From contig JBBTTG010000019.1 in the NCBI GenBank assembly GCA_038064355.1, positions 1 to 53,936 on the forward strand: a stretch of 53,936 nt of DNA, in the 5' to 3' direction. The stretch comes from Patescibacteria group bacterium. GTDB taxonomy: Bacteria; Patescibacteriota; Patescibacteriia; GWA2-47-26. Below the pieces are notes generated by a model. The model was not told the DNA's origin, ran no database searches, and was given only the letters and a program-made list of their open reading frames with translations. The position numbers were made by a program, and so were the translations under genes. Below are positions 635-43,194 of this stretch, piece by piece (the stretch's first letter is position 1; every line of letters begins with the position of its first letter).

Positions 635-742
635 GAGACTGTAGAAAATACCTCTTTCTCTGTCATTGCGAGGAGTAAACGACGAGATTGCCGCGCCCAC
701 TCGATGAACTCGGGGCTCGCAATGACGAATTTTTACAGTCTC
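635..742. repeat. Composite palindromic element: family-D termini enclosing a family-C hairpin (661-727)
   Basis: Termini are GAGACTGTAGAAAA ... TTTTTACAGTCTC. The interior is TGTCATTGCGAGG ... CTCGCAATGAC. Confidence 0.8.
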
Positions 743-2929: not shown

Positions 2930-3033
2930 CATCGCCTTCCCCCTTTGAAAAAGGGGGATTGAGGGGGATTTTCTCCAACCTGTTGCATAAATCCCTCGGC
3001 CTTCGGCCACTCCCTTTTTCAAAGGGAGAGAAA
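2930..3033. repeat. Family-G element, inverted relative to the copy at 39788-39925
   Basis: CCCCCTTTGAAAAAGGGGGATTGAGGGGGATTTTCTCC...CCCTCGGCCTTCGGCCACTCCCTTTTTCAAAGGGAGAG is the reverse complement of the 39.8 kb copy. Confidence 0.8.
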
Positions 3034-3372: not shown

Positions 3373-4314
3373 TCAGTGTGAGCGTTTAGTATCTATAATT
3401 GCCAACCGATTAAGACCTGCAAGGTCTTTTTTTATTTTGATTTTGCAGGAGGGGAAATAGTGGCGGGCGAGGGTTTGAATGTCGTCGGATTGGTGGGGGC
3501 AAATTTCAAAAATTAAGTAAGTAGCGTGTAGGGAGTAGCGTGTAGAAAATTCCTTGAGCTGTTTCAAGAGGGTGCGGTAGTAGGTGAGGCCGTCTGGGCC
3601 GCCGTCCAGGGCGAGGCGGGGTTCATAGTGGCGCACGTCAGGCGGGGATTGCCGCCATTCGGAAGTTGGAAGATAAGGGAGGTTGGCGGTGATAAATAGC
3701 GTGTAGGGAGTAGCGTGTAGGGAGTAGACACGCAGGAAAGGCTCAAGAAGGTTGATATACAGGAAGGTGATATTTTTTTCGACGCCATGGAGGCGGGCGT
3801 TTTTGCGGGCGACGGTGAGTGCGGAGCGGGAGGCGTCGGTGGCGAAAAATTCAATTCCCCTCACCTCCATCCTCTCCCCGGAGGGGAGAGGGAGGGGAGA
3901 GGGGGCGAGGAGTTTGGCAAGAGCAATAATAACACACCCGCTACCGGTGCCGATGTCGATGATAACAGTTGGTAGCTTGTAGCTGGTAGCGAGTAGGTTG
4001 AGGGATTCTTTCACCATCAGTTCCGTCTCGGGGCGGGGAATGAGGACGCGCTTGTCCACGCAAAAATCCAATCCGTAAAATTCTTTGTGGCCGGTGATGT
4101 AGGCCACCGGCTCGTGCTTGGCGCGCCGTTTGATCAGTTTGCCGTAGGTAGCCGACTGTGAGCGTTGGAGATTGTATTCAGGATGAGCAAACAGTGTCTC
4201 CTTCGTGATTTTGAGTGTATGCGCGAGCAGTATTTCCGCATCGAGCGAGGCGGATTTGATTTTCGCAGATTGAAGACGGCTAGTGCCCCAGAGGAGAGCC
4301 TCTCGCGAGGTCAT
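3373..4314 (-). CDS. prmC: Release-factor glutamine methyltransferase PrmC/HemK, carrying several repeat-derived segments
   Basis: SAM motif IDIGTGSGCV. Other motifs are PRPETE and NLPY (in the NPPY position). It sits directly downstream of prfA. At 313 aa it is about 35 aa longer than typical PrmC. Confidence 0.9.
   Translation of the reverse strand: MTSREALLWGTSRLQSAKIKSASLDAEILLAHTLKITKETLFAHPEYNLQRSQSATYGKLIKRRAKHEPVAYITGHKEFYGLDFCVDKRVLIPRPETELMVKESLNLLATSYKLPTVIIDIGTGSGCVIIALAKLLAPSPLPLPSGERMEVRGIEFFATDASRSALTVARKNARLHGVEKNITFLYINLLEPFLRVYSLHATPYTLFITANLPYLPTSEWRQSPPDVRHYEPRLALDGGPDGLTYYRTLLKQLKEFSTRYSLHATYLIFEICPHQSDDIQTLARHYFPSCKIKIKKDLAGLNRLAIIDTKRSH
3518..3545. repeat. Heptanucleotide NNNGTAG tract (4 units) inside prmC
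   Basis: TAAGTAG CGTGTAG GGAGTAG CGTGTAG, translated on the minus strand as RYSLHATY. Confidence 0.85.
3693..3727. repeat. Heptanucleotide NNNGTAG tract (5 units) inside prmC
   Basis: TAAATAG CGTGTAG GGAGTAG CGTGTAG GGAGTAG, translated as VYSLHATPYTLF. It ends four codons upstream of the NLPY motif. Confidence 0.85.
3857..3908. repeat. Family-B GC-rich palindrome inside prmC
   Basis: CCTCTCCCCGGAGGGGAGAGG core, translated as PSPLPLPSGERMEVRG. It is about 85 percent identical by eye to the eno copy. Confidence 0.85.
3969..3996. repeat. Heptanucleotide NNNGTAG tract (4 units) inside prmC
   Basis: TTGGTAG CTTGTAG CTGGTAG CGAGTAG, translated as LATSYKLP just before the SAM-binding motif. Confidence 0.8.
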
Positions 4315-4315
4315 A

Positions 4316-5383
4316 TTATTCCTCGTCCTCTATGTCAGTCTCGCCGCGTTGAAGCGAGGTGATGACATCGTTGATATCGCCATCAAGAATGCCAGGCAAG
4401 CCATGCCAGCTTTTCTTGATGCGGTGGTCCGTCAGGCGGTCCTGGGGGACGTTGTAGGTGCGGATTTTTTCCGAGCGCTCTCCCGTGCCGATCTGTGAAC
4501 GGCGCGCCTCGGACCGTTCGCGGTGGCGCTTTTCTTGTTCAAGCGCGTAGAGGCGCGAGCGCATGACCTGCATGGCCCGTACGCGGTTTTGCTGTTGGGA
4601 GCGTTCGTCTTGGCAGGAGACGACGAGCCCCGTGGGGATATGGGTGATGCGGATGGCGGAGTAGGTTGTATTGACCGATTGCCCGCCGTGCCCGCCGGCC
4701 GTGGATGTTTCGATTTTTAAATCTTTCGGATCCACCTTGAAATCCATTTCTTCCACTTCGGGGAGTACGGCAACGGTGGCAGTTGAGGTGTGCACGCGCC
4801 CCGCTTTTTCGGTTTCCGGGATGCGTTGGACGCGGTGCACGCCGCTTTCGTGTTTCAGCGCGCGATACGCGTTGCGGCCCTCAATGAGGAATACAACTTC
4901 TTTGAAACCGTCGATATCGGTGCGGTTGGAAGAGAGGAGCCGAGTCGACCATCCTTGGCGTTCGGCGAAACGGCTGTACATGCGAAAAAGATTGCCGGCA
5001 AAGAGCGCGGCCTCATCGCCTCCGGTGCCCGCGCGGATTTCCACAATGATATTCTTCTTATTCATCGGATCAGCCGGATGCAGGAGTTCGGCGAGTTCAG
5101 TTTGTAGTTTGTAGTTTGTAGTTTGTAGTGTTTTGATCTCCTCTTCGGCAAGGGAGCGCAATTCCGTATCTGTTGTTTCCCGGAGCGTTTTTTCTATATC
5201 CTCCACGACGCGGGTATTGGTATCTATCCGTTCCGCGAGATCGAGAATTTCTCTCAACTCGTCGTATTCCTTGGAAAGCGCGCGCAAACGCTCCGGATCC
5301 GCAAGGGTGTCCGGTTGGCTCATAAGCGTTTCAAGCTCTTGGGCGCGTTTTTGATTTTTTTGTATTTCCGGGAGGAAATTCAT
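4316..5383 (-). CDS. prfA: Peptide chain release factor 1
   Basis: GGQ motif ([11 protein letters not shown]), RF1-type PxT tripeptide (RIPETEK) and [11 protein letters not shown]. The start was chosen at MNFLPEIQ; the ORF-track start at 5407 is also possible. Confidence 0.93.
5101..5128. repeat. Perfect tandem heptamer (TTTGTAG)x4 inside prfA
   Basis: Four identical units, translated on the minus strand as [10 protein letters not shown]. Confidence 0.95.
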
Positions 5384-8339: not shown

Positions 8340-8460
8340 GAGACCGTAGAAAAACGCGATCTGCTTTGTTGAAACCTGCGGTATTCGCTCACCGTACCTT
8401 TCAGTACGGCTCGCTCACTCCTCGGTTTCGCCTCGCATCTCATCGTTTTTCTACAGTCTC
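8340..8460. repeat. Family-D MITE-like element (121 bp)
   Basis: Identical by eye to 19068-19188. It has roughly 20 bp terminal inverted repeats AATTTGAGACCGTAGAAAAA / TTTTTCTACAGTCTCAA and a central hairpin CCGTAC-CTTTCA-GTACGG. Confidence 0.9.
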
Positions 8461-19067: not shown

Positions 19068-19188
19068 GAGACCGTAGAAAAACGCGATCTGCTTTGTTGA
19101 AACCTGCGGTATTCGCTCACCGTACCTTTCAGTACGGCTCGCTCACTCCTCGGTTTCGCCTCGCATCTCATCGTTTTTCTACAGTCTC
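19068..19188. repeat. Family-D MITE-like element inserted between rpsB and tsf
   Basis: Identical by eye to 8340-8460. Confidence 0.9.
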
Positions 19189-21033: not shown

Positions 21034-21072
21034 TAAGATAGGAAAGAAGAAAAAAGATATGGTGTTTATATA

Positions 21073-21333
21073 ATGACAAACCAGCGAAACACGACTCTTT
21101 ACACTGGCGTAACGGGCAATTTGGCGAAGCGGGTTTGGGAACATAAAAATAAAGGAGTCAAAGGGTTTACCGAAAAATACAATATCGGTAAACTCGTTTA
21201 TTTTGAGGTGTTTCCTTCGCCATACGAAGCGATACAAAGAGAAAAGCAGATCAAGGCTGGATCGAGGAAAAAAAAGCTGGATCTTATTGCAAAGATGAAT
21301 CCTGAATGGAAGGATTTAAGTGATTCATTGTAG
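21073..21333 (+). CDS. GIY-YIG nuclease family protein (86 aa, COG2827/UPF0213-like)
   Basis: LYTGVTGNLAKRVWEHK...YFEVF...AIQREKQIKAGSRKKK matches the GIY...YIG / R / E core. Confidence 0.85.
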   Translation: MTNQRNTTLYTGVTGNLAKRVWEHKNKGVKGFTEKYNIGKLVYFEVFPSPYEAIQREKQIKAGSRKKKLDLIAKMNPEWKDLSDSL

Positions 21334-21441: not shown

Positions 21442-22707
21442 ATGAACGAATTTTTTCTCAAAACGTCCGAATTTGATTACCCTTTACCCGAGCGGCTCAT
21501 TGCGCAGAAGCCGTTTTCGCCGCGCGATTGTTGCCGTCTGCTTGTTTTGCATCGCGAGAGCGGGAAGATGGAACACCGGAAATTCTTTGATATTACGGCA
21601 TATCTTCGCGCGGGTGATGTGCTTGTGCTCAACGACAGCCGTGTTTTTAAAGCGAGACTTTTTGGAAGATTGTCATTGCGAGGAGCGGGGCGACGAAGCA
21701 ATCCCGTCCAAGTACAAGATCGCCGCGCCTCGCCTGCGGTGAAGCTCGCGATGACAGAGAAAAAGATAGAGGTATTTTTGTTGAGGGAAGTTGATAAAAC
21801 GGGAACATGGGAAGCGTTGGGAAATCCCGGGAAAAAATTAAAAGACGGGGTGAAGGTTTCTTTTTCAAAAACCGTCGAGTGTGAAGTCATCGGGAAGCGT
21901 GAAGGGAAATATCTGGTGCGTTTTAATATCCGCGGCTTGGCTTTTCAAAAGTTTTTGGCGCGGTATGGCCATGTGCCCATTCCTCCTTATATAGGGAAGG
22001 AGCCAAAAGACGCCGGAGACTATCAAACCGTCTATGCGCGGCAGAGCGGGTCAGTCGCCGCTCCGACGGCCGGGTTTCATTTCACGAAACGCCTTTTAAA
22101 AAAGATTGAGCGCATGGGAGTGGAGGTGCGATATATCACTTTGCATGTCGGATATGGAACATTTAAGCTCGTGAAATCCGAAGAGGTGAGCGCGCATAAG
22201 ATGGAAGAAGAGTGGGTGGAAATTTCGGCAGAGACCGCACGAGCGATTTCGCGCGCCAAGAGCGAGGGCAGGAGAGTGGTTGCCGTTGGGACGACGACAG
22301 TCAGAGCGCTTGAGGGATACTCCCTGATTAGTCATCGCGAGGAGCCGAAGGCGACGCGGCGATCCCGTACTCGAAACGAGATTGCTTCTCCGCCAAAGGC
22401 GGATCGCAATGACATTCTTTCGGCCTACTCCGGTCCTGTAAATATATTCATCTACCCCCACACCAAAAATTTTGGTGTGGGGGTAAACCCGGGCTATAAG
22501 TTTCAAATCGTTGACGCGCTGGTGACCAATTTTCACCTGCCAAAATCCACTCTGCTCGTGCTCGTTTCCGCCTTCGCGAAATCCCCCCTCTCCCTTGATG
22601 GGAGAGGGCAGGGTGAGGGTGTCATTTTGATCAAAACCGCCTACCAAGAGGCAATCAAGAAAAAATATCGCGTTTATTCGTTTGGAGATGCGATGATAAT
22701 TGTGTAG
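21442..22707 (+). CDS. queA: S-adenosylmethionine:tRNA ribosyltransferase-isomerase, with four in-frame palindromic insertions
   Basis: FDYPLPERLIAQKP, PIPPYI, YQTVYA, AAPTAGFHFT, VGTTTVRALE, VDALVTNFHLPKSTLLVLVSAF, YRVYSFGDAM. The start was trimmed to MNEFFLK. Confidence 0.93.
   Translation: MNEFFLKTSEFDYPLPERLIAQKPFSPRDCCRLLVLHRESGKMEHRKFFDITAYLRAGDVLVLNDSRVFKARLFGRLSLRGAGRRSNPVQVQDRRASPAVKLAMTEKKIEVFLLREVDKTGTWEALGNPGKKLKDGVKVSFSKTVECEVIGKREGKYLVRFNIRGLAFQKFLARYGHVPIPPYIGKEPKDAGDYQTVYARQSGSVAAPTAGFHFTKRLLKKIERMGVEVRYITLHVGYGTFKLVKSEEVSAHKMEEEWVEISAETARAISRAKSEGRRVVAVGTTTVRALEGYSLISHREEPKATRRSRTRNEIASPPKADRNDILSAYSGPVNIFIYPHTKNFGVGVNPGYKFQIVDALVTNFHLPKSTLLVLVSAFAKSPLSLDGRGQGEGVILIKTAYQEAIKKKYRVYSFGDAMIIV
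21671..21756. repeat. Family-C element inside queA
   Basis: TGTCATTGCGAGG...CTCGCGATGACA, translated as LSLRGAGRRSNPVQVQDRRASPAVKLAMT between the conserved LFGR and KKIEVF. Confidence 0.9.
22330..22414. repeat. Family-C element inside queA, read in a different frame from the first copy
   Basis: AGTCATCGCGAGG...GGATCGCAATGACAT, translated as ISHREEPKATRRSRTRNEIASPPKADRNDI. Confidence 0.9.
22455..22483. repeat. Perfect 14 bp-arm palindrome inside queA
   Basis: CCCCCACACCAAAA-A-TTTTGGTGTGGGGG, translated as PHTKNFGVGV inside the conserved IYP-GYKF segment. Confidence 0.85.
22581..22621. repeat. Family-B GC-rich palindrome inside queA
   Basis: CCCTCTCCC-TTGAT-GGGAGAGGG followed by CAGGGTGAGGG, translated as PLSLDGRGQGEG. 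Confidence 0.8.
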
Positions 22708-25125: not shown

Positions 25126-26425
25126 GCGTATTCAAAGTATTCATGCCTACGAAATATTGGACTCGCGCGGGAATCCGACCGTGCGGGTGAGGGTGCGCCT
25201 GAAAGATGGTTCCGAGGGAGTCGCCTCGGTGCCTTCGGGCGCCTCGACCGGCGTGCATGAAGCGCTCGAACTTCGCGATGGAGACAAAAAGCGCTATGGC
25301 GGCAAGGGGGTGCAAAAGGCGTGCCGATTTGTGAATAAAATCATGGCTCCAAGGATTGCCGGTATGGCGGTGGAGGATCAACGAGTCATAGATGGTTTGA
25401 TGTGCGAGCTCGATGGGACAAAGCACAAGTCGCATTTTGGAGCTAATGCTATTTTGGGTATATCGCTTGCCTGCGCGCACGCGGGTGCGGCATCGGCCAA
25501 GCTCCCGCTTTATCGCTACCTCCGCAAAATCTACTCTCTCCACGCTACTCCATACAGGTTGCCCCACCCAATGATGAACATCCTTAATGGCGGACGGCAC
25601 GCGGATTGGAGTTTGGATTTGCAGGAGTGCATGATCGTGCCCGGGCAGAAGAAGTTTTCCGATCGCCTGCGTTGCGGCGCGGAGGTTTTTCATGCGTTGT
25701 ATGATATCTTGAAGAAACGAGGGCTTACGGTCGGTGTGGGCGACGAAGGGGGATATGCGCCGCGTTTAAAAAGCAATGAAGAGGCTTTTCGTCTCATCGG
25801 CGAGGCGGTGCAAGCGGCGGGATATATGTATGGAAAACAAGTGAAGGTGGCGATTGATGCCGCGGCCTCGGAGTTCTATAACGGAAAAACAGGACGTTAT
25901 GAGATGAATGTGGATAAGAAAAAATTGAGCTCGGATGAGCTGGGAAAACTCTATAGACGATGGATGAAGCAGTATCCGCTGATTTCCCTTGAGGATCCAT
26001 TTGCCGAAGATGATTGGGACGCGTGGAAGAAGTTTACTCATCAACTTTCCTCACCCTTCCCTCTCCCCAGAGGGGAGAGGATTAAGGTGAGGGGGAAAGG
26101 CACCATGATCGTTGGAGATGATCTTTTCGTAACGAATGTTGAGCGTTTAAAGAAAGGGATAGAAATGGGAGTGGGGAATGCCATTCTTATCAAGGTCAAT
26201 CAGATAGGCACGCTCTCCGAGACCATGGATGCGATTGATCTGGCGCGAAAACATGATTACCGCGTGATCCTTTCTCACCGCTCGGGTGAGACCGCGGATA
26301 CGACGATCGCGGATTTGGCCGTGGCGGTGAATGCCGACTACATCAAGACCGGAAGCCTCTCGCGCAGCGAACGCGTGGAAAAATATAATCGATTGCTGGA
26401 GATTGAGTCGGAAGTGAGTTTGTGA
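25124..26425 (+). CDS. eno: Enolase, with two repeat-derived segments
   Basis: ILDSRGNPTV, SGASTG, PMMNILNGG, GDEGGYAP, VGDDLFVTN, IKVNQIGTLSET, SHRSGETAD. Confidence 0.96.
   Translation: MRIQSIHAYEILDSRGNPTVRVRVRLKDGSEGVASVPSGASTGVHEALELRDGDKKRYGGKGVQKACRFVNKIMAPRIAGMAVEDQRVIDGLMCELDGTKHKSHFGANAILGISLACAHAGAASAKLPLYRYLRKIYSLHATPYRLPHPMMNILNGGRHADWSLDLQECMIVPGQKKFSDRLRCGAEVFHALYDILKKRGLTVGVGDEGGYAPRLKSNEEAFRLIGEAVQAAGYMYGKQVKVAIDAAASEFYNGKTGRYEMNVDKKKLSSDELGKLYRRWMKQYPLISLEDPFAEDDWDAWKKFTHQLSSPFPLPRGERIKVRGKGTMIVGDDLFVTNVERLKKGIEMGVGNAILIKVNQIGTLSETMDAIDLARKHDYRVILSHRSGETADTTIADLAVAVNADYIKTGSLSRSERVEKYNRLLEIESEVSL
25531..25558. repeat. Heptanucleotide tract (CTACNNN orientation) inside eno
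   Basis: CTACTCT CTCCACG CTACTCC ATACAGG, translated as YSLHATPYR. prmC carries the same peptide. Confidence 0.85.
26048..26097. repeat. Family-B GC-rich palindrome inside eno
   Basis: CCTCACCC-TTC-CCTCTCCCC-AGA-GGGGAGAGG-ATTAA-GGTGAGGG, translated as SSPFPLPRGERIKVRG before VGDDLFVTN. Confidence 0.9.
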
Positions 26426-26469
26426 TAGAGTGGAATAAGGAAACTAAAGTTCAAGAGTTCAATTTTTTA

Positions 26470-26793
26470 ATGTATAGTATGTCCATGGACCATGAATCAA
26501 ACCAAGAGATTTTGGAAGCAATCCATGAATTTTCTACGCATGTTGACACGCGCTTTGAAGACGTGAACAAGCGCTTTGAAGACGTGACTCAAGAGATAGG
26601 CAAGGCTAAAATTGACATCCTTGACGCCGTAGACGACAAGTTGGTCAATCTCAAGGGTGATTTGATTTTACTTATGCGCAGTGAAGATAAAAAACTTTTG
26701 TATTTGGTGCAGGTATTGAAAAACAAAAAAATCTTGACTGAAGAAGAAACCCGCAATATCTTGAAACTGCAACCGTTCCCGCAGGCTCTTTAG
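26470..26793 (+). CDS. Small coiled-coil protein, paralog of 34425-34829
   Basis: EILEAIHEFSTHVDTRFEDVNKRFEDV...LQPFPQ aligns with the 34.4 kb gene. The start is uncertain (26422-26485). Confidence 0.6.
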   Translation: MYSMSMDHESNQEILEAIHEFSTHVDTRFEDVNKRFEDVTQEIGKAKIDILDAVDDKLVNLKGDLILLMRSEDKKLLYLVQVLKNKKILTEEETRNILKLQPFPQAL

Positions 26794-26873
26794 GTTTTCG
26801 GTAAAAATTTCGAAGGGCGGAAAAATCATATTACCGCATACCGCACTGCTTGCGGCGCGGTAATTGATTTACG

Positions 26874-27030
26874 ATAGGACTTACGCACTTGACCTCTTTC
26901 TGTCATCCTCGCGAATGCGGGGATCCAGTATCCAGGCTCCTTTCCGAGGCCTGGATTCCCGCTGGAGTTTACCCCGCACTGGTGCGGGGCGGGAATGACA
27001 CCCCTAAATGGGTTTTTGCGTAAGTTCTAT
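26874..27030. repeat. Composite element: family-E termini enclosing a family-F palindrome
   Basis: Termini are ATAGGACTTACGCACTTGACC ... TGCGTAAGTTCTAT. The interior is TGTCATCCTCGCGAATGCGGGGATCCAG...GCGGGGCGGGAATGACA. Confidence 0.8.
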
Positions 27031-27133
27031 ACGAGCTACATCGACGAACGCGTGGAAAAATATAATCGATTGCTCGTGTTTGTTGTTGTTTTGTTTTTTT
27101 GGGAAAACCTGATACAGTGGGCGTACTTATTTT

Positions 27134-34244: not shown

Positions 34245-34377
34245 GAGACTGTAGAAAAACTCTTAAAAATCACTTCCTTCTGTCATTCCCGCGAAAGCGG
34301 GAATCCAGAAACCACTTCAAACCTGGATCCCCGCTTTCGCGAGGATGACAGAAAGAGGTCAAGTGCGAAGTCCTATA
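34245..34377. repeat. Chimeric element: D-type left end, family-F core, E-type right end
   Basis: GAGACTGTAGAAAAA..., then TGTCATTCCCGCGAAAGCGGGAATCCAG...GAGGATGACA, then ...GGTCAAGTGCGAAGTCCTATA. Confidence 0.8.
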
Positions 34378-34424: not shown

Positions 34425-34829
34425 ATGACGGAAAATACGCCGCCGACCAGCCAGGAAATTTTGCCGACCATTCAGGATGTTCTTGAGGCCGTAAACGAGT
34501 TTGCCAGTCATGTAGACAAGCGGTTTTCGGATATAGACAAGCGGTTTTCGGATATAGACAAACAGTTTTCGGGTATAGACAAACAGTTTTCGGGTATTCG
34601 CGAAGAGATGGCGACAAAGAGTGATCTCAACCGTTTTAAGCTAGACTTGATTGATGTCATAGATGAGAAGAACGCCGATCTCAAGGCTGATCTTACTATC
34701 CTTATGAGAAAAGAAGATAAGAAGGTGGTGAGTTTGATTGATCTTTTGCGAAAAAAATCCGTCATTGATAATACAGAGGCGGCAAAGATTCTTGGTATGG
34801 ATCCGTTTCCGCAGGATGTGGTTATATAA
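34425..34829 (+). CDS. Small coiled-coil protein, paralog of 26470-26793
   Basis: EILPTIQDVLEAVNEFASHVDKRFSDIDKRFSDIDKQFSGIDKQFSG...MDPFPQ. Confidence 0.65.
   Translation: MTENTPPTSQEILPTIQDVLEAVNEFASHVDKRFSDIDKRFSDIDKQFSGIDKQFSGIREEMATKSDLNRFKLDLIDVIDEKNADLKADLTILMRKEDKKVVSLIDLLRKKSVIDNTEAAKILGMDPFPQDVVI
34512..34595. repeat. 21 bp tandem repeat x4 inside the coiled-coil gene
   Basis: GTAGACAAGCGGTTTTCGGAT / ATAGACAAGCGGTTTTCGGAT / ATAGACAAACAGTTTTCGGGT x2, encoding the heptad DKRFSDI / DKQFSGI. Confidence 0.95.
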
Positions 34830-39787: not shown

Positions 39788-39925
39788 CGGTTCTCTCCCT
39801 TTGGAAAAGGGAGTGGCCGAAGGCCGAGGGATTTGCGTCAATGGTTTTGGGAAAATCCCCCTTAATCCCCCTTGTTTCTCCGCCAGAGGCGGATCCGCCT
39901 CTGGCGGAGAAGGGGGAAGTCAAAA
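39788..39925. repeat. Family-G element with a nested perfect palindrome (39868-39909)
   Basis: CTCTCCCTTTGGAAAAGGGAGTGGCCGAAGGCCGAGGG...AAAATCCCCCTTAATCCCCCTT, interrupted by CTCCGCCAGAGGCGG-AT-CCGCCTCTGGCGGAG. Confidence 0.8.
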
Positions 39926-42919: not shown

Positions 42920-43004
42920 AATCCCGTCATTCTCCCCACCAATCCCGTCATTCCCGCGCAGGCGGGAATCCAGGCATAGACCCCCGCTTTCGCGAGGGTG
43001 ACAG
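42920..43004. repeat. Family-F element with a partial duplication of its left end
   Basis: AATCCCGTCATTCTCCCC, then AATCCCGTCATTCCCGCGCAGGCGGGAATCCAGG...CGCGAGGGTGACAG. Confidence 0.8.
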
Positions 43005-43013
43005 ATTAACTTC

Positions 43014-43194
43014 TATAGGACTTACGCGCTTCCGCCCGGGAGTCCTGTAATTGTGGAACTTCCCATGGCGGAAGCCACAGGGGTTTGACCAATCTCTTCG
43101 TTAAAAGGCTCTGCTCTTGCTCGCCGTAGCTCTACTACGCCTCGCAACATCCTCGCCTTTTGCCTCGACCTTGGTCAAACGCGTAAGTCCTATT
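43014..43194. repeat. Family-E MITE-like element (about 180 bp) with perfect 14 bp terminal inverted repeats
   Basis: ATAGGACTTACGCG ... CGCGTAAGTCCTAT. Its first 66 bp recur at 53871-53936 with two mismatches. Confidence 0.9.

What the first reader, a model, noticed from the sequence alone, without database searches (positions are those of the whole stretch)
34245..34377. Nested and chimeric repeat architecture: the families recombine with or insert into one another
Four cases show repeats combining.
- 34245-34377 joins a family-D left terminus, a family-F palindrome and a family-E right terminus.
- 26874-27030 has family-E termini around a family-F core.
- 635-742 has family-D termini around a family-C core.
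- The family-G copy at 39788-39925 is interrupted by a perfect 15 bp-arm palindrome (CTCCGCCAGAGGCGG-AT-CCGCCTCTGGCGGAG) that is absent from the inverted G copy at 2930-3033.

This shows repeated insertion of hairpin elements into the loops or arms of other hairpin elements. Such preferred targets are a hallmark of structure-directed mobility.
Basis: seen in the sequence. Interest (0 to 1): 0.6.

Follow-up and report, generated by a model that had tools for sequence, protein, structure and literature searches.

The report
Hairpin repeats riding inside small transposons
In this tiny uncultured (Patescibacteria) genome, known nuclease-linked DNA hairpins sit as cargo inside two kinds of miniature transposons, and shared hairpins let the elements recombine; the parts are known kinds, but the combination looks undescribed.

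Summary
All four composites exist at the stated coordinates. They come from three processes, not one.

1. 26875-27029 and 635-742 are complete miniature transposons (MITEs).
   - Each has terminal inverted repeats and a perfect 5-bp target duplication (TACGA, AATGT), so each moved as a unit.
   - E termini match an IS701-family insertion sequence, found intact in other Patescibacteria. The partner for the D termini is unknown.
   - Their cores are family F and family C hairpins. F equals the Neisseria NTS/dRS3 (CGTC-tagged REP) motif cut by small GIY-YIG Ssn nucleases. C is a related tagged hairpin.

2. 34245-34375 is a single-crossover hybrid of a D-type and an E-type MITE, joined inside their shared NTS hairpin. 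It has no target duplication.

3. Two cases are hairpin-in-loop.
   - The extra hairpin in the NTS loop at 26963-26988 is an old compound motif. It occurs in at least 24 genera with covarying stems, so it was probably swapped in by short-patch recombination.
   - The palindrome in the family-G loop (39878-39909) is a one-off. It is widespread in metagenomes but shows no preference for hairpin loops there.

MITEs with such hairpin cores recur across the class with different hairpin types, so modular recombination is real. Structure-directed insertion is not shown.

The parts
34245..34375 (+). Case 1: hybrid element made of a D-type left half and an E2-type right half, with no target duplication (flanks CTCTC / TAAGT).
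   Evidence: Positions 34245-34341 are about 96% identical to the D-type element at C35:16895. Positions 34342-34375 match E2 copies at 34 of 35 positions.
34245..34259 (+). D-type terminal inverted repeat, GAGACTGTAGAAAAA.
   Evidence: The same 16-mer occurs in 26 of 401 genomes of the class, with 0 hits in the reversed control.
34281..34308 (+). NTS/SRM hairpin TGTCATTCCCGCGAAAGCGGGAATCCAG (family F).
   Evidence: It matches the published SRM pattern and the NTS consensus.
34323..34350 (-). Second, convergent NTS/SRM hairpin. The crossover lies within TTCGCG at about 34336-34341.
26875..27029 (+). Case 2: E2 MITE with IS701-type termini and an NTS-pair core. Target duplication TACGA at 26870-26874 and 27030-34.
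   Evidence: The sister copy C34:1230-1363 (duplication TAGAA) is identical at 129 of 133 positions outside one indel.
26955..26999 (-). Compound NTS: GTCATTCCCGC + inner hairpin CCCGCACCAGTGCGGG + linker GTAAACTCCA + GCGGGAAT. The extra 26 nt lie at 26963-26988.
26901..26928 (+). Simple NTS/SRM hairpin of the E2 core.
635..742 (+). Case 3: D-terminus MITE with a family-C (GTCATTGCGAG...CTCGCAATGAC, 662-726) core. Target duplication AATGT at 630-634 and 743-747.
   Evidence: The core matches the C arms that flank the GIY-YIG gene (pairs I8 and I24).
39788..39925 (+). Case 4: family-G array of four hairpins (G1 = H1+H2, H3 clamp, G2 = H4).
39878..39909 (.). 32-nt perfect palindrome, a head-to-head pair of the small CTCCGCC-NNN-GGCGGAT hairpin. 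It sits at the 3' edge of the G2 loop and has no target duplication.
   Evidence: The same kind of palindrome occurs in at least 120 metagenome stretches.
2930..3033 (-). Family-G copy without the palindrome (reference 'empty' form).
43016..43192 (+). E1 MITE, 177 nt, the abundant family with E termini. Target duplication TTCTA.
   Evidence: Twenty copies are 99-100% identical.
42946..43003 (+). Free NTS hairpin pair, 13 nt from the E1 MITE. The first hairpin is a perfect match to the Neisseria NTS consensus.
21058..21276 (+). Small GIY-YIG nuclease domain flanked by family-C hairpins (candidate Ssn-type partner of family C).
8340..8460 (+). D1 MITE: D termini with a core that holds no tagged hairpin. 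It shows that D termini occur with other cores.
   Evidence: It is 99% identical to the copy at 19068-19188.

Best explanation
The window comes from a 0.8-Mb Patescibacteria genome that carries two layers of small repeats, and these layers combine.

**Layer 1: true MITEs, moved in trans by DDE transposases**
- E-type MITEs have the termini TAGGACTTACGCGTTTGACC and make 5-bp duplications. They derive from an IS701-family insertion sequence.
- D-type MITEs have the termini GAGACTGTAGAAAAA and make AT-rich 5-bp duplications. Their partner is unknown.

**Layer 2: oriented, GTCAT-tagged hairpins, usually in convergent pairs**
- Family F is the NTS/dRS3 (CGTC-REP) motif recognised by small GIY-YIG Ssn single-strand nucleases.
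- Family C is a related tagged hairpin that flanks a GIY-YIG gene in this window.
- Smaller untagged hairpins also occur (the CCGCC...GGCGG hairpin and the G hairpins).

**How the four cases arose**
- Cases 2 and 3 are MITEs whose whole core is a hairpin or hairpin pair. They transposed as units (shown by the target duplications).
- How cores enter MITEs is inferred: the hairpin pair is either inserted into, or captured between, a pair of termini. This happens repeatedly, each time with the resident hairpin type.
- Case 1 arose by one crossover, or one template switch, between a D-type and an E-type MITE. The join lies within the roughly 28-nt NTS hairpin that both carry (shown by crossover mapping and the missing duplication).
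- The compound hairpin in case 2 is an old NTS variant, probably exchanged between copies by short-patch recombination through the conserved arms (inferred).
- Case 4 is a single insertion of a widespread small palindrome.

**Why extra DNA sits in loops**
- Most likely, loops are where extra DNA leaves folding and protein recognition intact. Ssn tolerates loop changes, and transposases read only the termini.
For: **E-type MITEs and their insertion sequence**
- 22 of 30 E pairs have perfect 5-bp duplications, against 0 in the control.
- The case duplications are TACGA at 26875-27029 and AATGT at 635-742.
- An intact 1,060-bp insertion sequence has the same 20-bp termini and the duplication AGTAT.
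  - It encodes a 323-aa transposase that scores 359 bits against the IS701 model NF049921, cut-off 250.
  - Further copies are L290 and L291.

**Identity of family F**
- F matches the NTS consensus and the SRM pattern of Chenal et al. 2025.
- The window also has a perfect NTS at 42946.

**Recurrence of composites**
- Composites with other hairpin types and perfect duplications occur in other genomes.
  - E-type: L054, L067/68/77, L081, L102 and L114.
  - D-type: L140, L150, L152, L158, L168 and L169.
- D elements made of termini only, 30-33 nt long, also exist (L146 and L154).

**Case 1 and the compound hairpin**
- The case 1 crossover is mapped.
- The compound NTS occurs in 55 of 401 class genomes, with 0 control hits.
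- Its inner helix is 92% paired. It has 39 doubly changed cells, against 12.4 +/- 2.6 in shuffles (0 of 500 reach it).

**Loop tolerance and precedent**
- The NTS loop is dispensable and extendable for SsnA.
- Di Nocera et al. 2013 reported REP dimers inside palindromes and noted that CGTC REPs lack a dedicated transposase.
Against: - The assembled genome holds no IS701-type transposase and no multi-copy insertion sequence. Current mobility of the E elements therefore rests only on the 99-100% identity of E1 copies.
- The D-type transposase is unidentified. D flanks are often AAWTT-like, and several copies have imperfect duplications.
- No empty E2 or D element, with the same body but lacking the hairpin pair, was found. 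The way hairpin pairs enter MITEs is therefore not shown.
- Covariation of the inner stem could also arise from independent insertions of different hairpins at one spot. Only the conserved linker argues for common descent.
- No GIY-YIG gene flanked by family F was found here.
- The genome is a short-read metagenome assembly, and reads could not be inspected.
Confidence: 0.68

Rival explanations
1. Small hairpin elements move on their own, perhaps through a single-strand nuclease or transposase acting on extruded hairpins. They insert preferentially into the single-stranded loops, or palindrome centres, of other hairpin elements, and this builds the nested forms.
For: - All extra segments lie in unpaired parts of the host fold.
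- Hairpin pairs fill the centre of both D- and E-terminus palindromes in many genomes.
- D hairpins made of termini only exist as possible targets.
- Di Nocera et al. 2013 saw REP dimers inside palindromes in three other species, with unoccupied target palindromes present in one of them.
Against: - Cases 2 and 3 have their own duplications, and case 1 is a crossover.
- The compound NTS is old and conserved.
- In 79 metagenome contexts the case 4 palindrome shows no excess of outer stems: mean 4.46 against 4.40, with 5% above the control's 95th percentile.
- No junction signature or duplication flanks the hairpin pairs.
- Loop tolerance, and the fact that only still-foldable copies are recognised, explain the same pattern.
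Confidence: 0.2
2. The composites are the canonical, ancestral full-length elements, and the separate 'families' are only their fragments.
For: - 7-8 of about 11 F hairpin pairs in this genome lie within D or E termini.
- The composites carry duplications.
Against: - D termini occur with at least six unrelated cores here and E termini with an unrelated 177-nt core.
- Composites in other genomes carry different hairpin types.
- NTS hairpins occur without such termini in many phyla.
- Free pairs exist here, at 42946-43003 and C32:568-660.
Confidence: 0.07
3. New MITE cores are captured during repair of the gap left by cut-and-paste transposition. In this 'abortive gap repair' the polymerase switches template at short homologies, and hairpin-forming repeats are favoured filler. 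Case 1 and the loop indel of E2 would be products of the same template switching.
For: - The case 1 crossover and the E2 indel both lie in short shared hairpin arms.
- A 72-nt fold-back mini-E1 (C43:43-114, duplication TCTTA) is what a strand switch within the element would give.
- C8:10799-11032 is a fusion of two D elements at a shared TAGAAAAAC.
Against: - There is no direct evidence for excision or gap repair in this lineage.
- The idea does not explain why hairpin pairs fill the whole core in both MITE classes.
- The tools available here cannot separate it from ordinary homologous recombination.
Confidence: 0.2
4. The D/E hybrid of case 1 is an assembly artefact, created when a short-read assembler jumped between two repeats.
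For: - The genome is a 50-contig metagenome assembly in which many contigs end in E1 repeats.
Against: - The exact sequence shared by the two parental types around the crossover is at most about 12 nt (CTGGATCCCCGC) plus a 6-nt TTCGCG. That is far below usual assembler word sizes.
- Both flanks continue into unique genes.
Confidence: 0.05

Closest known systems
NTS / dRS3 hairpins (Ssn-related motifs, SRM) with small GIY-YIG Ssn single-strand nucleases (Chenal et al., Nat Commun 2025, PMC11893778). These equal the CGTC-tagged REPs of Di Nocera et al. 2013 (PMC3733652).
   Same: - Family F matches the NTS consensus CGTCATTCCCGCGMAVGCGGGAATCYRG, with a perfect match at 42946.
- It also matches the SRM pattern.
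- The hairpins are oriented, GTCAT-tagged and mostly in head-to-head pairs.
- Small GIY-YIG genes are present, and one is flanked by the related family-C hairpins.
   Different: - There are only a couple of dozen copies here, not hundreds.
- No GIY-YIG gene flanked by family F was found.
- Most pairs sit inside MITE termini.
- A compound form with a second hairpin and a conserved linker in the loop falls outside the published pattern, which allows loops of 0-5 nt.
IS701-family insertion sequences and their MITEs
   Same: - The E elements share 20-bp termini and 5-bp duplications with an intact 1,060-bp insertion sequence.
- Its transposase passes the NCBIfam IS701 model.
- The elements are non-coding, 72-280 nt long, multi-copy and AT-rich in their targets.
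   Different: - The host genome lacks the transposase.
- The left terminus of E1 is split by a conserved, covarying 50-nt hairpin.
- Some members carry nuclease-linked hairpin pairs as their whole core.
Neisseria intergenic mosaic elements (NIMEs) and E. coli BIMEs
   Same: They are mosaics built from a small set of hairpin modules. The same dRS3-type hairpin serves as a recombination substrate.
   Different: - Here the hairpins are enclosed by transposon termini and carried as cargo with target duplications.
- NIMEs and BIMEs are arrays without termini or duplications.
REP dimers inside longer palindromes (Anabaena variabilis GTAG-15, Thermomicrobium roseum GTAG-23 and Halothiobacillus neapolitanus CGTC-1; Di Nocera et al. 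2013)
   Same: Pairs of tagged hairpins lie at the centre of a longer inverted repeat. The A. variabilis palindrome even begins TATAGGA, like the E terminus.
   Different: - Those host palindromes were not shown to be MITEs with duplications or linked to an insertion sequence.
- Here two unrelated terminus classes host several hairpin types.
Nested or composite pneumococcal repeats (RUP within BOX) and other nested bacterial MITEs. This is recalled from my own knowledge and was not checked here.
   Same: One small repeat is found inside another, and modular sub-units are re-assorted.
   Different: The sequences, enzymes and lineage all differ.

Membership tests
MITE (non-autonomous DDE transposon) | Terminal inverted repeats | tested here: met
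   E has TAGGACTTACGC(G) at both ends and D has GAGACTGTAGAAAAA at both ends. Case 1 has one terminus of each kind, so it is not a competent unit.
MITE (non-autonomous DDE transposon) | Target-site duplication of fixed length | tested here: met
   - 22 of 30 E pairs have a perfect 5-bp duplication, against 0 in the control.
- Case 2 has TACGA and case 3 has AATGT.
- D elements in other genomes have ATCTT, AGTTT, AATCT, ATTAT and AATAT.
- Case 1 has none.
MITE (non-autonomous DDE transposon) | Autonomous element with the same termini that encodes a transposase | tested here: met
   - For E it is met: L105:2625-3684, an IS701-family element with duplication AGTAT, plus L290 and L291.
- For D no partner was found.
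- The own genome has no partner for either class.
NTS / Ssn-related motif (SRM) | Match to the published NTS consensus or SRM pattern | tested here: met
   - The pattern has 18 hits in the genome, against 3-10 in shuffles. Six are in the window, including 34281, 34350, 26901 and 42946.
- The compound form at 26955-26999 does not match, because its loop exceeds 5 nt.
NTS / Ssn-related motif (SRM) | Genomic association with a small single-domain GIY-YIG (Ssn) gene flanked by the motif | tested here: inconclusive
   The genome has six small GIY-YIG domains. Only the one at window 21058-21276 is flanked by tagged hairpins, and those are family C, not F.
NTS / Ssn-related motif (SRM) | Cleavage of the single-stranded motif by the cognate nuclease | not testable with these tools
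   This needs a biochemical assay.
REPIN / REP with RAYT | Inverted pair of REP hairpins as the unit | tested here: met
   Convergent pairs predominate.
REPIN / REP with RAYT | GTAG tag and an associated IS200-like tyrosine transposase (RAYT) | tested here: not met
   The tag is (C/T)GTC, not GTAG. No RAYT search was run, and Di Nocera et al. 2013 report that CGTC REPs are not flanking such genes. It works like a REPIN pair but is not filed as one.
Neisseria intergenic mosaic element (NIME) | Repeat units each flanked by dRS3 hairpins, arranged in arrays | tested here: not met
   Here the dRS3-type hairpins are the inner part and transposon termini are the outer part.

The most novel reading that the evidence does not exclude
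The 'transposase-less' CGTC/NTS hairpin pairs, the targets of Ssn nucleases, spread in Patescibacteria mainly by hitch-hiking as the cores of DDE-transposon MITEs.
- At least two unrelated terminus classes are involved: IS701-type E and the D type.
- Each genome's resident hairpin type is captured repeatedly at the centre of a terminus palindrome.
- This would couple two unrelated selfish systems. It would also answer the question, left open in 2013 and 2025, of how these hairpins multiply.
- A stronger form of the idea is that capture is an active, loop-directed insertion linked to the single-strand nuclease.
Probability: 0.35. Interest if true: 0.65.

Novelty: new variant of a known kind. 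Interest (0 to 1): 0.45.

Why it matters
**An open question about how these hairpins spread**
- NTS/dRS3-type hairpins occur in many phyla. They were tied to a nuclease family only in 2025, and how they multiply is unknown.
- The 2013 survey found no dedicated transposase. It suggested that they might be moved by 'a broad spectrum of transposases'.
- Here, and in many other candidate-phyla genomes, such hairpin pairs lie between the ends of bona fide MITEs with target duplications. This gives a concrete and testable route of spread.

**Why loops can hold extra DNA**
- The compound form, with a covarying second hairpin in the loop, fits the experimental finding that the nuclease ignores the loop.

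**Practical consequences**
- These repeats break short-read assemblies: many contigs of this genome end in E1.
- They create recombination substrates inside 0.8-Mb genomes that are usually regarded as repeat-poor.

Tried and rejected
- **Rfam.** A scan of the whole window at gathering thresholds gave no hit, so none of the elements is a described RNA family.
- **Autonomous element in the own genome.**
  - Pairs of degenerate termini 600-3000 nt apart are only neighbouring MITEs.
  - One candidate, C23:8250-10040, encodes RelA/SpoT-like and HAD-like proteins, not a transposase.
  - No repeat of 230 nt or more looks like an insertion sequence.
  - A search with the IS701-type transposase found nothing.
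- **D-type partner.** The IS701 model was searched in 11 genomes rich in D elements. The hits have E-like termini, not D termini.
- **Closest relatives.** The E1 MITE is absent from 40 relatives, so no orthologous empty sites were available.
- **Gene-plus-repeat unit.** I tested whether the E2 ends next to the two paralogous small genes (26422-26793 and 34425-34829) mark a duplicated unit. The orientations differ. The third E2 end (contig C36) is followed by a tyrosine recombinase gene, so the idea was rejected.
- **General loop preference of the case 4 palindrome.** Rejected.
- **Strong palindrome preference of E1 insertion sites.** Only a mild excess was seen: 5 of 22 sites at or above the control's 95th percentile.

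Full report
**Setting**

The window is contig C19 of a 795-kb, 50-contig genome with 52% G+C, estimated 97.6% complete. Its genes are ordinary chromosomal ones, such as enolase, phosphoglycerate mutase, ribosomal protein L10 and a sigma factor. Earlier notes of this scan call the organism an Uhrbacteria-like Patescibacteria. My own cross-genome hits all fall in that group. No relative in the genome collection shares the genus.

**Observation**

I read the four places and mapped repeats within the window and genome-wide. All four composites are present as described, and each module recurs elsewhere in the genome. As single-stranded DNA the elements fold far better than shuffled controls. The z-scores are -7.2, -5.1, -4.7 and -8.0 for cases 1 to 4, and no shuffle does as well.

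**Layer 1: two classes of true MITE**

*E termini*
- E termini (TAGGACTTACGC) form 30 inverted pairs in the genome.
- Most pairs belong to a 177-nt element, E1. It has 20 copies that are 99-100% identical, and many more copies sit at contig ends.
- 22 of the 30 pairs have a perfect 5-bp target duplication and 4 more match at 4 of 5 positions. An offset control gives 0. The target consensus is T-W-N-W-A.
- One scan of the species-representative genomes with the first 20 nt of the terminus hit more than 94 stretches.
  - The hits come from many Patescibacteria lineages: Saccharibacteria, Komeili-, Doudna-, Falkow-, Yanofsky-, Uhr-, Lipton-, Sungii- and Moranii-bacteria.
  - A few come from other phyla.
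  - Most are 160-180-nt MITEs homologous to E1 over their whole length.
- One hit, L105:2625-3684 in a Sungiibacteriota assembly, is an intact 1,060-bp insertion sequence.
  - Its ends are TAGAACTTACGCGTTTGACC and GGTCAAACGCGTAAGTCCTA, and its duplication is AGTAT.
  - Its 323-aa transposase matches DDE_Tnp_1 and DDE_5. It passes the NCBIfam IS701 model NF049921 with 359 bits against a cut-off of 250.
- Two more such insertion sequences turned up in other class members.
- The own assembly has no homologue of this transposase and no multi-copy insertion sequence.

*D termini*
- D termini (GAGACTGTAGAAAAA) bound at least a dozen elements here, with at least six unrelated cores.
- The 16-mer occurs in 26 of 401 genomes of the class, with 0 hits in the reversed control.
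- In those genomes D elements of 30 to 247 nt often show perfect 5-bp duplications: ATCTT, AGTTT, AATCT, ATTAT and AATAT.
- I did not find their transposase.

**Layer 2: tagged hairpins**

- Family F (TGTCATTCCCGCGAAAGCGGGAATCCAG) fits the Neisseria 'NTS' consensus CGTCATTCCCGCGMAVGCGGGAATCYRG, which contains dRS3. The copy at 42946 is a perfect match.
- Chenal et al. 2025 showed that NTS and related 'Ssn-related motifs' flank small GIY-YIG genes in many phyla. They also showed that SsnA cuts them only as single-stranded DNA (PMC11893778).
- Their search pattern hits 18 sites in this genome, against 3-10 in shuffles. Six are in the window, including both hairpins of case 1 and the simple hairpin of case 2.
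- Di Nocera et al. 2013 had classed the same hairpins as 'CGTC-tagged REPs' (PMC3733652).
  - They are mostly head-to-head dimers.
  - They have no dedicated transposase.
  - In three species the REP dimers sit inside longer palindromes.
- Family C (GTCATTGCGAG...) shares the GTCAT tag.
- The genome has five other small GIY-YIG domains.
  - Four lie beside tRNA genes.
  - One of those four is split by an E1 MITE.

**Cases 2 and 3**

- 26875-27029 has E termini and the duplication TACGA. A sister copy at C34:1230-1363 has the duplication TAGAA and is identical at 129 of 133 positions, apart from one indel.
- 635-742 has D termini and the non-palindromic duplication AATGT.
- Both therefore moved as whole units.
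- Their cores are, from one terminus to the other, a pair of NTS hairpins (case 2) or a family-C hairpin (case 3).
- This is a general architecture.
  - Other genomes hold E-terminus elements with perfect duplications whose cores are pairs of other tagged hairpin types: L054, L067/68/77, L081, L102 and L114.
  - They also hold D-terminus elements of the same build: L140, L150, L152, L158, L168 and L169.
  - D elements that consist of the two termini only, 30-33 nt long, exist as well (L146 and L154).
- In this genome 7-8 of about 11 NTS pairs lie within D or E termini.
- Because the hairpin type differs from genome to genome, the composites must have formed many times. The step that forms them is not visible in the data.

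**Case 1**

- Positions 34245-34341 are about 96% identical to the D-type elements at C35:16895 and C8. The match includes the D-specific spacer AAACCACTTCAAAC.
- Positions 34342-34375 match the E2 right end at 34 of 35 positions.
- The switch falls inside TTCGCG, within the NTS hairpin that both parents share.
- The flanks (CTCTC and TAAGT) are not a duplication.
- This is a single crossover or template switch, not an insertion.
- An assembly error is unlikely because the parents share at most about 12 exact bases at the junction. I could not check reads.
- Similar re-assortments occur elsewhere in the genome.
  - C8:10799-11032 is a fusion of two D elements at a shared TAGAAAAAC.
  - C43:43-114 is a 72-nt fold-back mini-E1 with its own duplication, TCTTA.
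  - An E1 copy is inserted in the right D terminus of C35:16895, with the duplication TACAA.
  - Another E1 copy sits at the same position of a D terminus on C10.

**The extra hairpin in the NTS loop (case 2, 26963-26988)**

- The same 26 nt, with one mismatch, sits at the same place in three different contexts in this genome: the E2 element, the D element at C35 and a free pair at C32:568.
- Across 401 genomes of the class, GTCATTCCCGC-N16-46-GCGGGAAT occurs in 55 genomes, with 0 hits in the reversed control.
- The commonest form is the same compound motif: outer arms, an inner hairpin, then the linker (T/C)A(A/G)(A/G)CTCC(A/G)GC.
- I aligned 26 sequences from 24 genomes, including this one.
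  - The inner helix is 92% paired, and 4 of its 6 pairs show changes on both sides.
  - There are 39 doubly changed cells, against 12.4 +/- 2.6 in shuffles (0 of 500 reach the observed value) and at most 18 with slid partners.
- With its conserved linker, this is best read as an old variant of the motif.
- The difference between the two E2 copies is then a short-patch exchange through the conserved arms.
- Other compound classes recur too. The 30-nt block CTCGCCTCGCTGAAG...GGCGAAGCGGG fills NTS loops in another genome and appears as an insert in two E1 variants here.
- Those E1 inserts lie in predicted internal loops of the E1 fold.
- Chenal et al. report that loop identity is not needed for cutting and that the loop can be removed or extended. 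This explains why loops can carry extra DNA.

**Case 4**

- Family G is an array of four hairpins. Its halves also occur alone.
- The 32-nt palindrome at 39878-39909 is a head-to-head pair of the small hairpin CTCCGCC-NNN-GGCGGAT. It stacks on the last G stem, and the fold energy changes from -26.5 to -43.9 kcal/mol.
- 19 of the genome's G2 hairpins have plain 5-nt loops.
- Single copies of the small hairpin also sit inside other clamps, here and elsewhere. Examples are a family-C hairpin at 22390 and NTS loops in other genomes.
- Palindromes of this form occur in at least 120 metagenome stretches.
  - In 79 distinct contexts their flanks form outer stems no more often than mismatched flank pairs do: mean 4.46 against 4.40, with 5% above the control's 95th percentile.
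  - The usual context is a T-run on one side and an A-run on the other.
- Case 4 is therefore a real nested insertion, but it is not evidence of a general preference for loops.

**Verdict**

- The evidence points to three things:
  - transposition of composite MITEs by DDE enzymes;
  - recombination within shared hairpins;
  - tolerance of loop insertions.
- It does not point to a demonstrated structure-directed insertion mechanism.
- All the building blocks are known kinds.
- I did not find two features described in the papers I read or in a search of the library for Patescibacteria MITEs:
  - the packaging of Ssn-type hairpin pairs as MITE cargo in two terminus classes;
  - the compound loop form.
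- Other notes of this scan report the same pattern in other phyla. Those notes are leads, not independent evidence.

Noticed in passing
window 26368-26405 and 27045-27082: About 30 nt of the enolase 3' end is duplicated (92% over 38 nt). The two copies flank a 639-bp block that holds a small coiled-coil ORF (26422-26793), a hairpin repeat and the E2 MITE. It looks like a mini-insertion into the end of eno that brought its own replacement 3' end.
   Followed up: partly
genome contig C1:3990-4343 (outside the window): An E1 MITE (4167-4343, flanked by GATCA on both sides) splits a small GIY-YIG nuclease gene.
   Followed up: partly
genome contigs C28:3029, C25:21407, C17:26264 and C1:3990: Four of the six small GIY-YIG genes lie directly beside tRNA genes. 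None of the four is flanked by tagged hairpins.
   Followed up: no
window 43016-43192; L051:2827-3006: - The left IS701-type terminus of the E1 MITE is split, between TAGGACTTACGCG and GTTTGACCAA, by a hairpin of about 50 nt.
- A Saccharibacteria homologue keeps the same layout with a different, compensating stem (GCTTCCGCC/GGCGGAAGC against GCTTGAGCCAC/GTGGCTCAAGC).
- The sub-terminal pair also compensates (GTTTGACCAA against GTTTGGCCAA).
   Followed up: partly
genome contig C43:43-114: A 72-nt mini-element consists of the E1 left end folded back on itself. It has its own duplication, TCTTA, so a rearranged derivative stayed mobile.
   Followed up: partly
L098, L099, L104, L073, L080, L069, L118: The same 20-nt E terminus occurs in assemblies labelled Poribacteria, Planctomycetales, Bdellovibrionales and Anaerolineaceae, as 72-123-nt elements with duplications. 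This suggests either transfer of this IS701 lineage across phyla or mis-binned contigs.
   Followed up: no
window 26826-26870: The hairpin repeat ATTACCGCATACCGCACTGCTTGCGGCGCGGTAAT lies directly before the E2 MITE. Five other copies exist in the genome, and two of them are at contig ends (C12 and C10).
   Followed up: no
L170-L249: The CCGCC-NNN-GGCGGATCCGCC-NNN-GGCGG palindrome is widespread in environmental contigs. It is nearly always flanked by a T-run and an A-run, and its loop triplets vary freely.
   Followed up: partly
genome contigs C31:35950-36177 and C35:2273-2302: E1 variants carry a 30-nt insert, CTCGCCTCGCTGAAGATCCGGCGAAGCGGG. The same block fills NTS loops in another genome of the class (G130).
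   Followed up: partly
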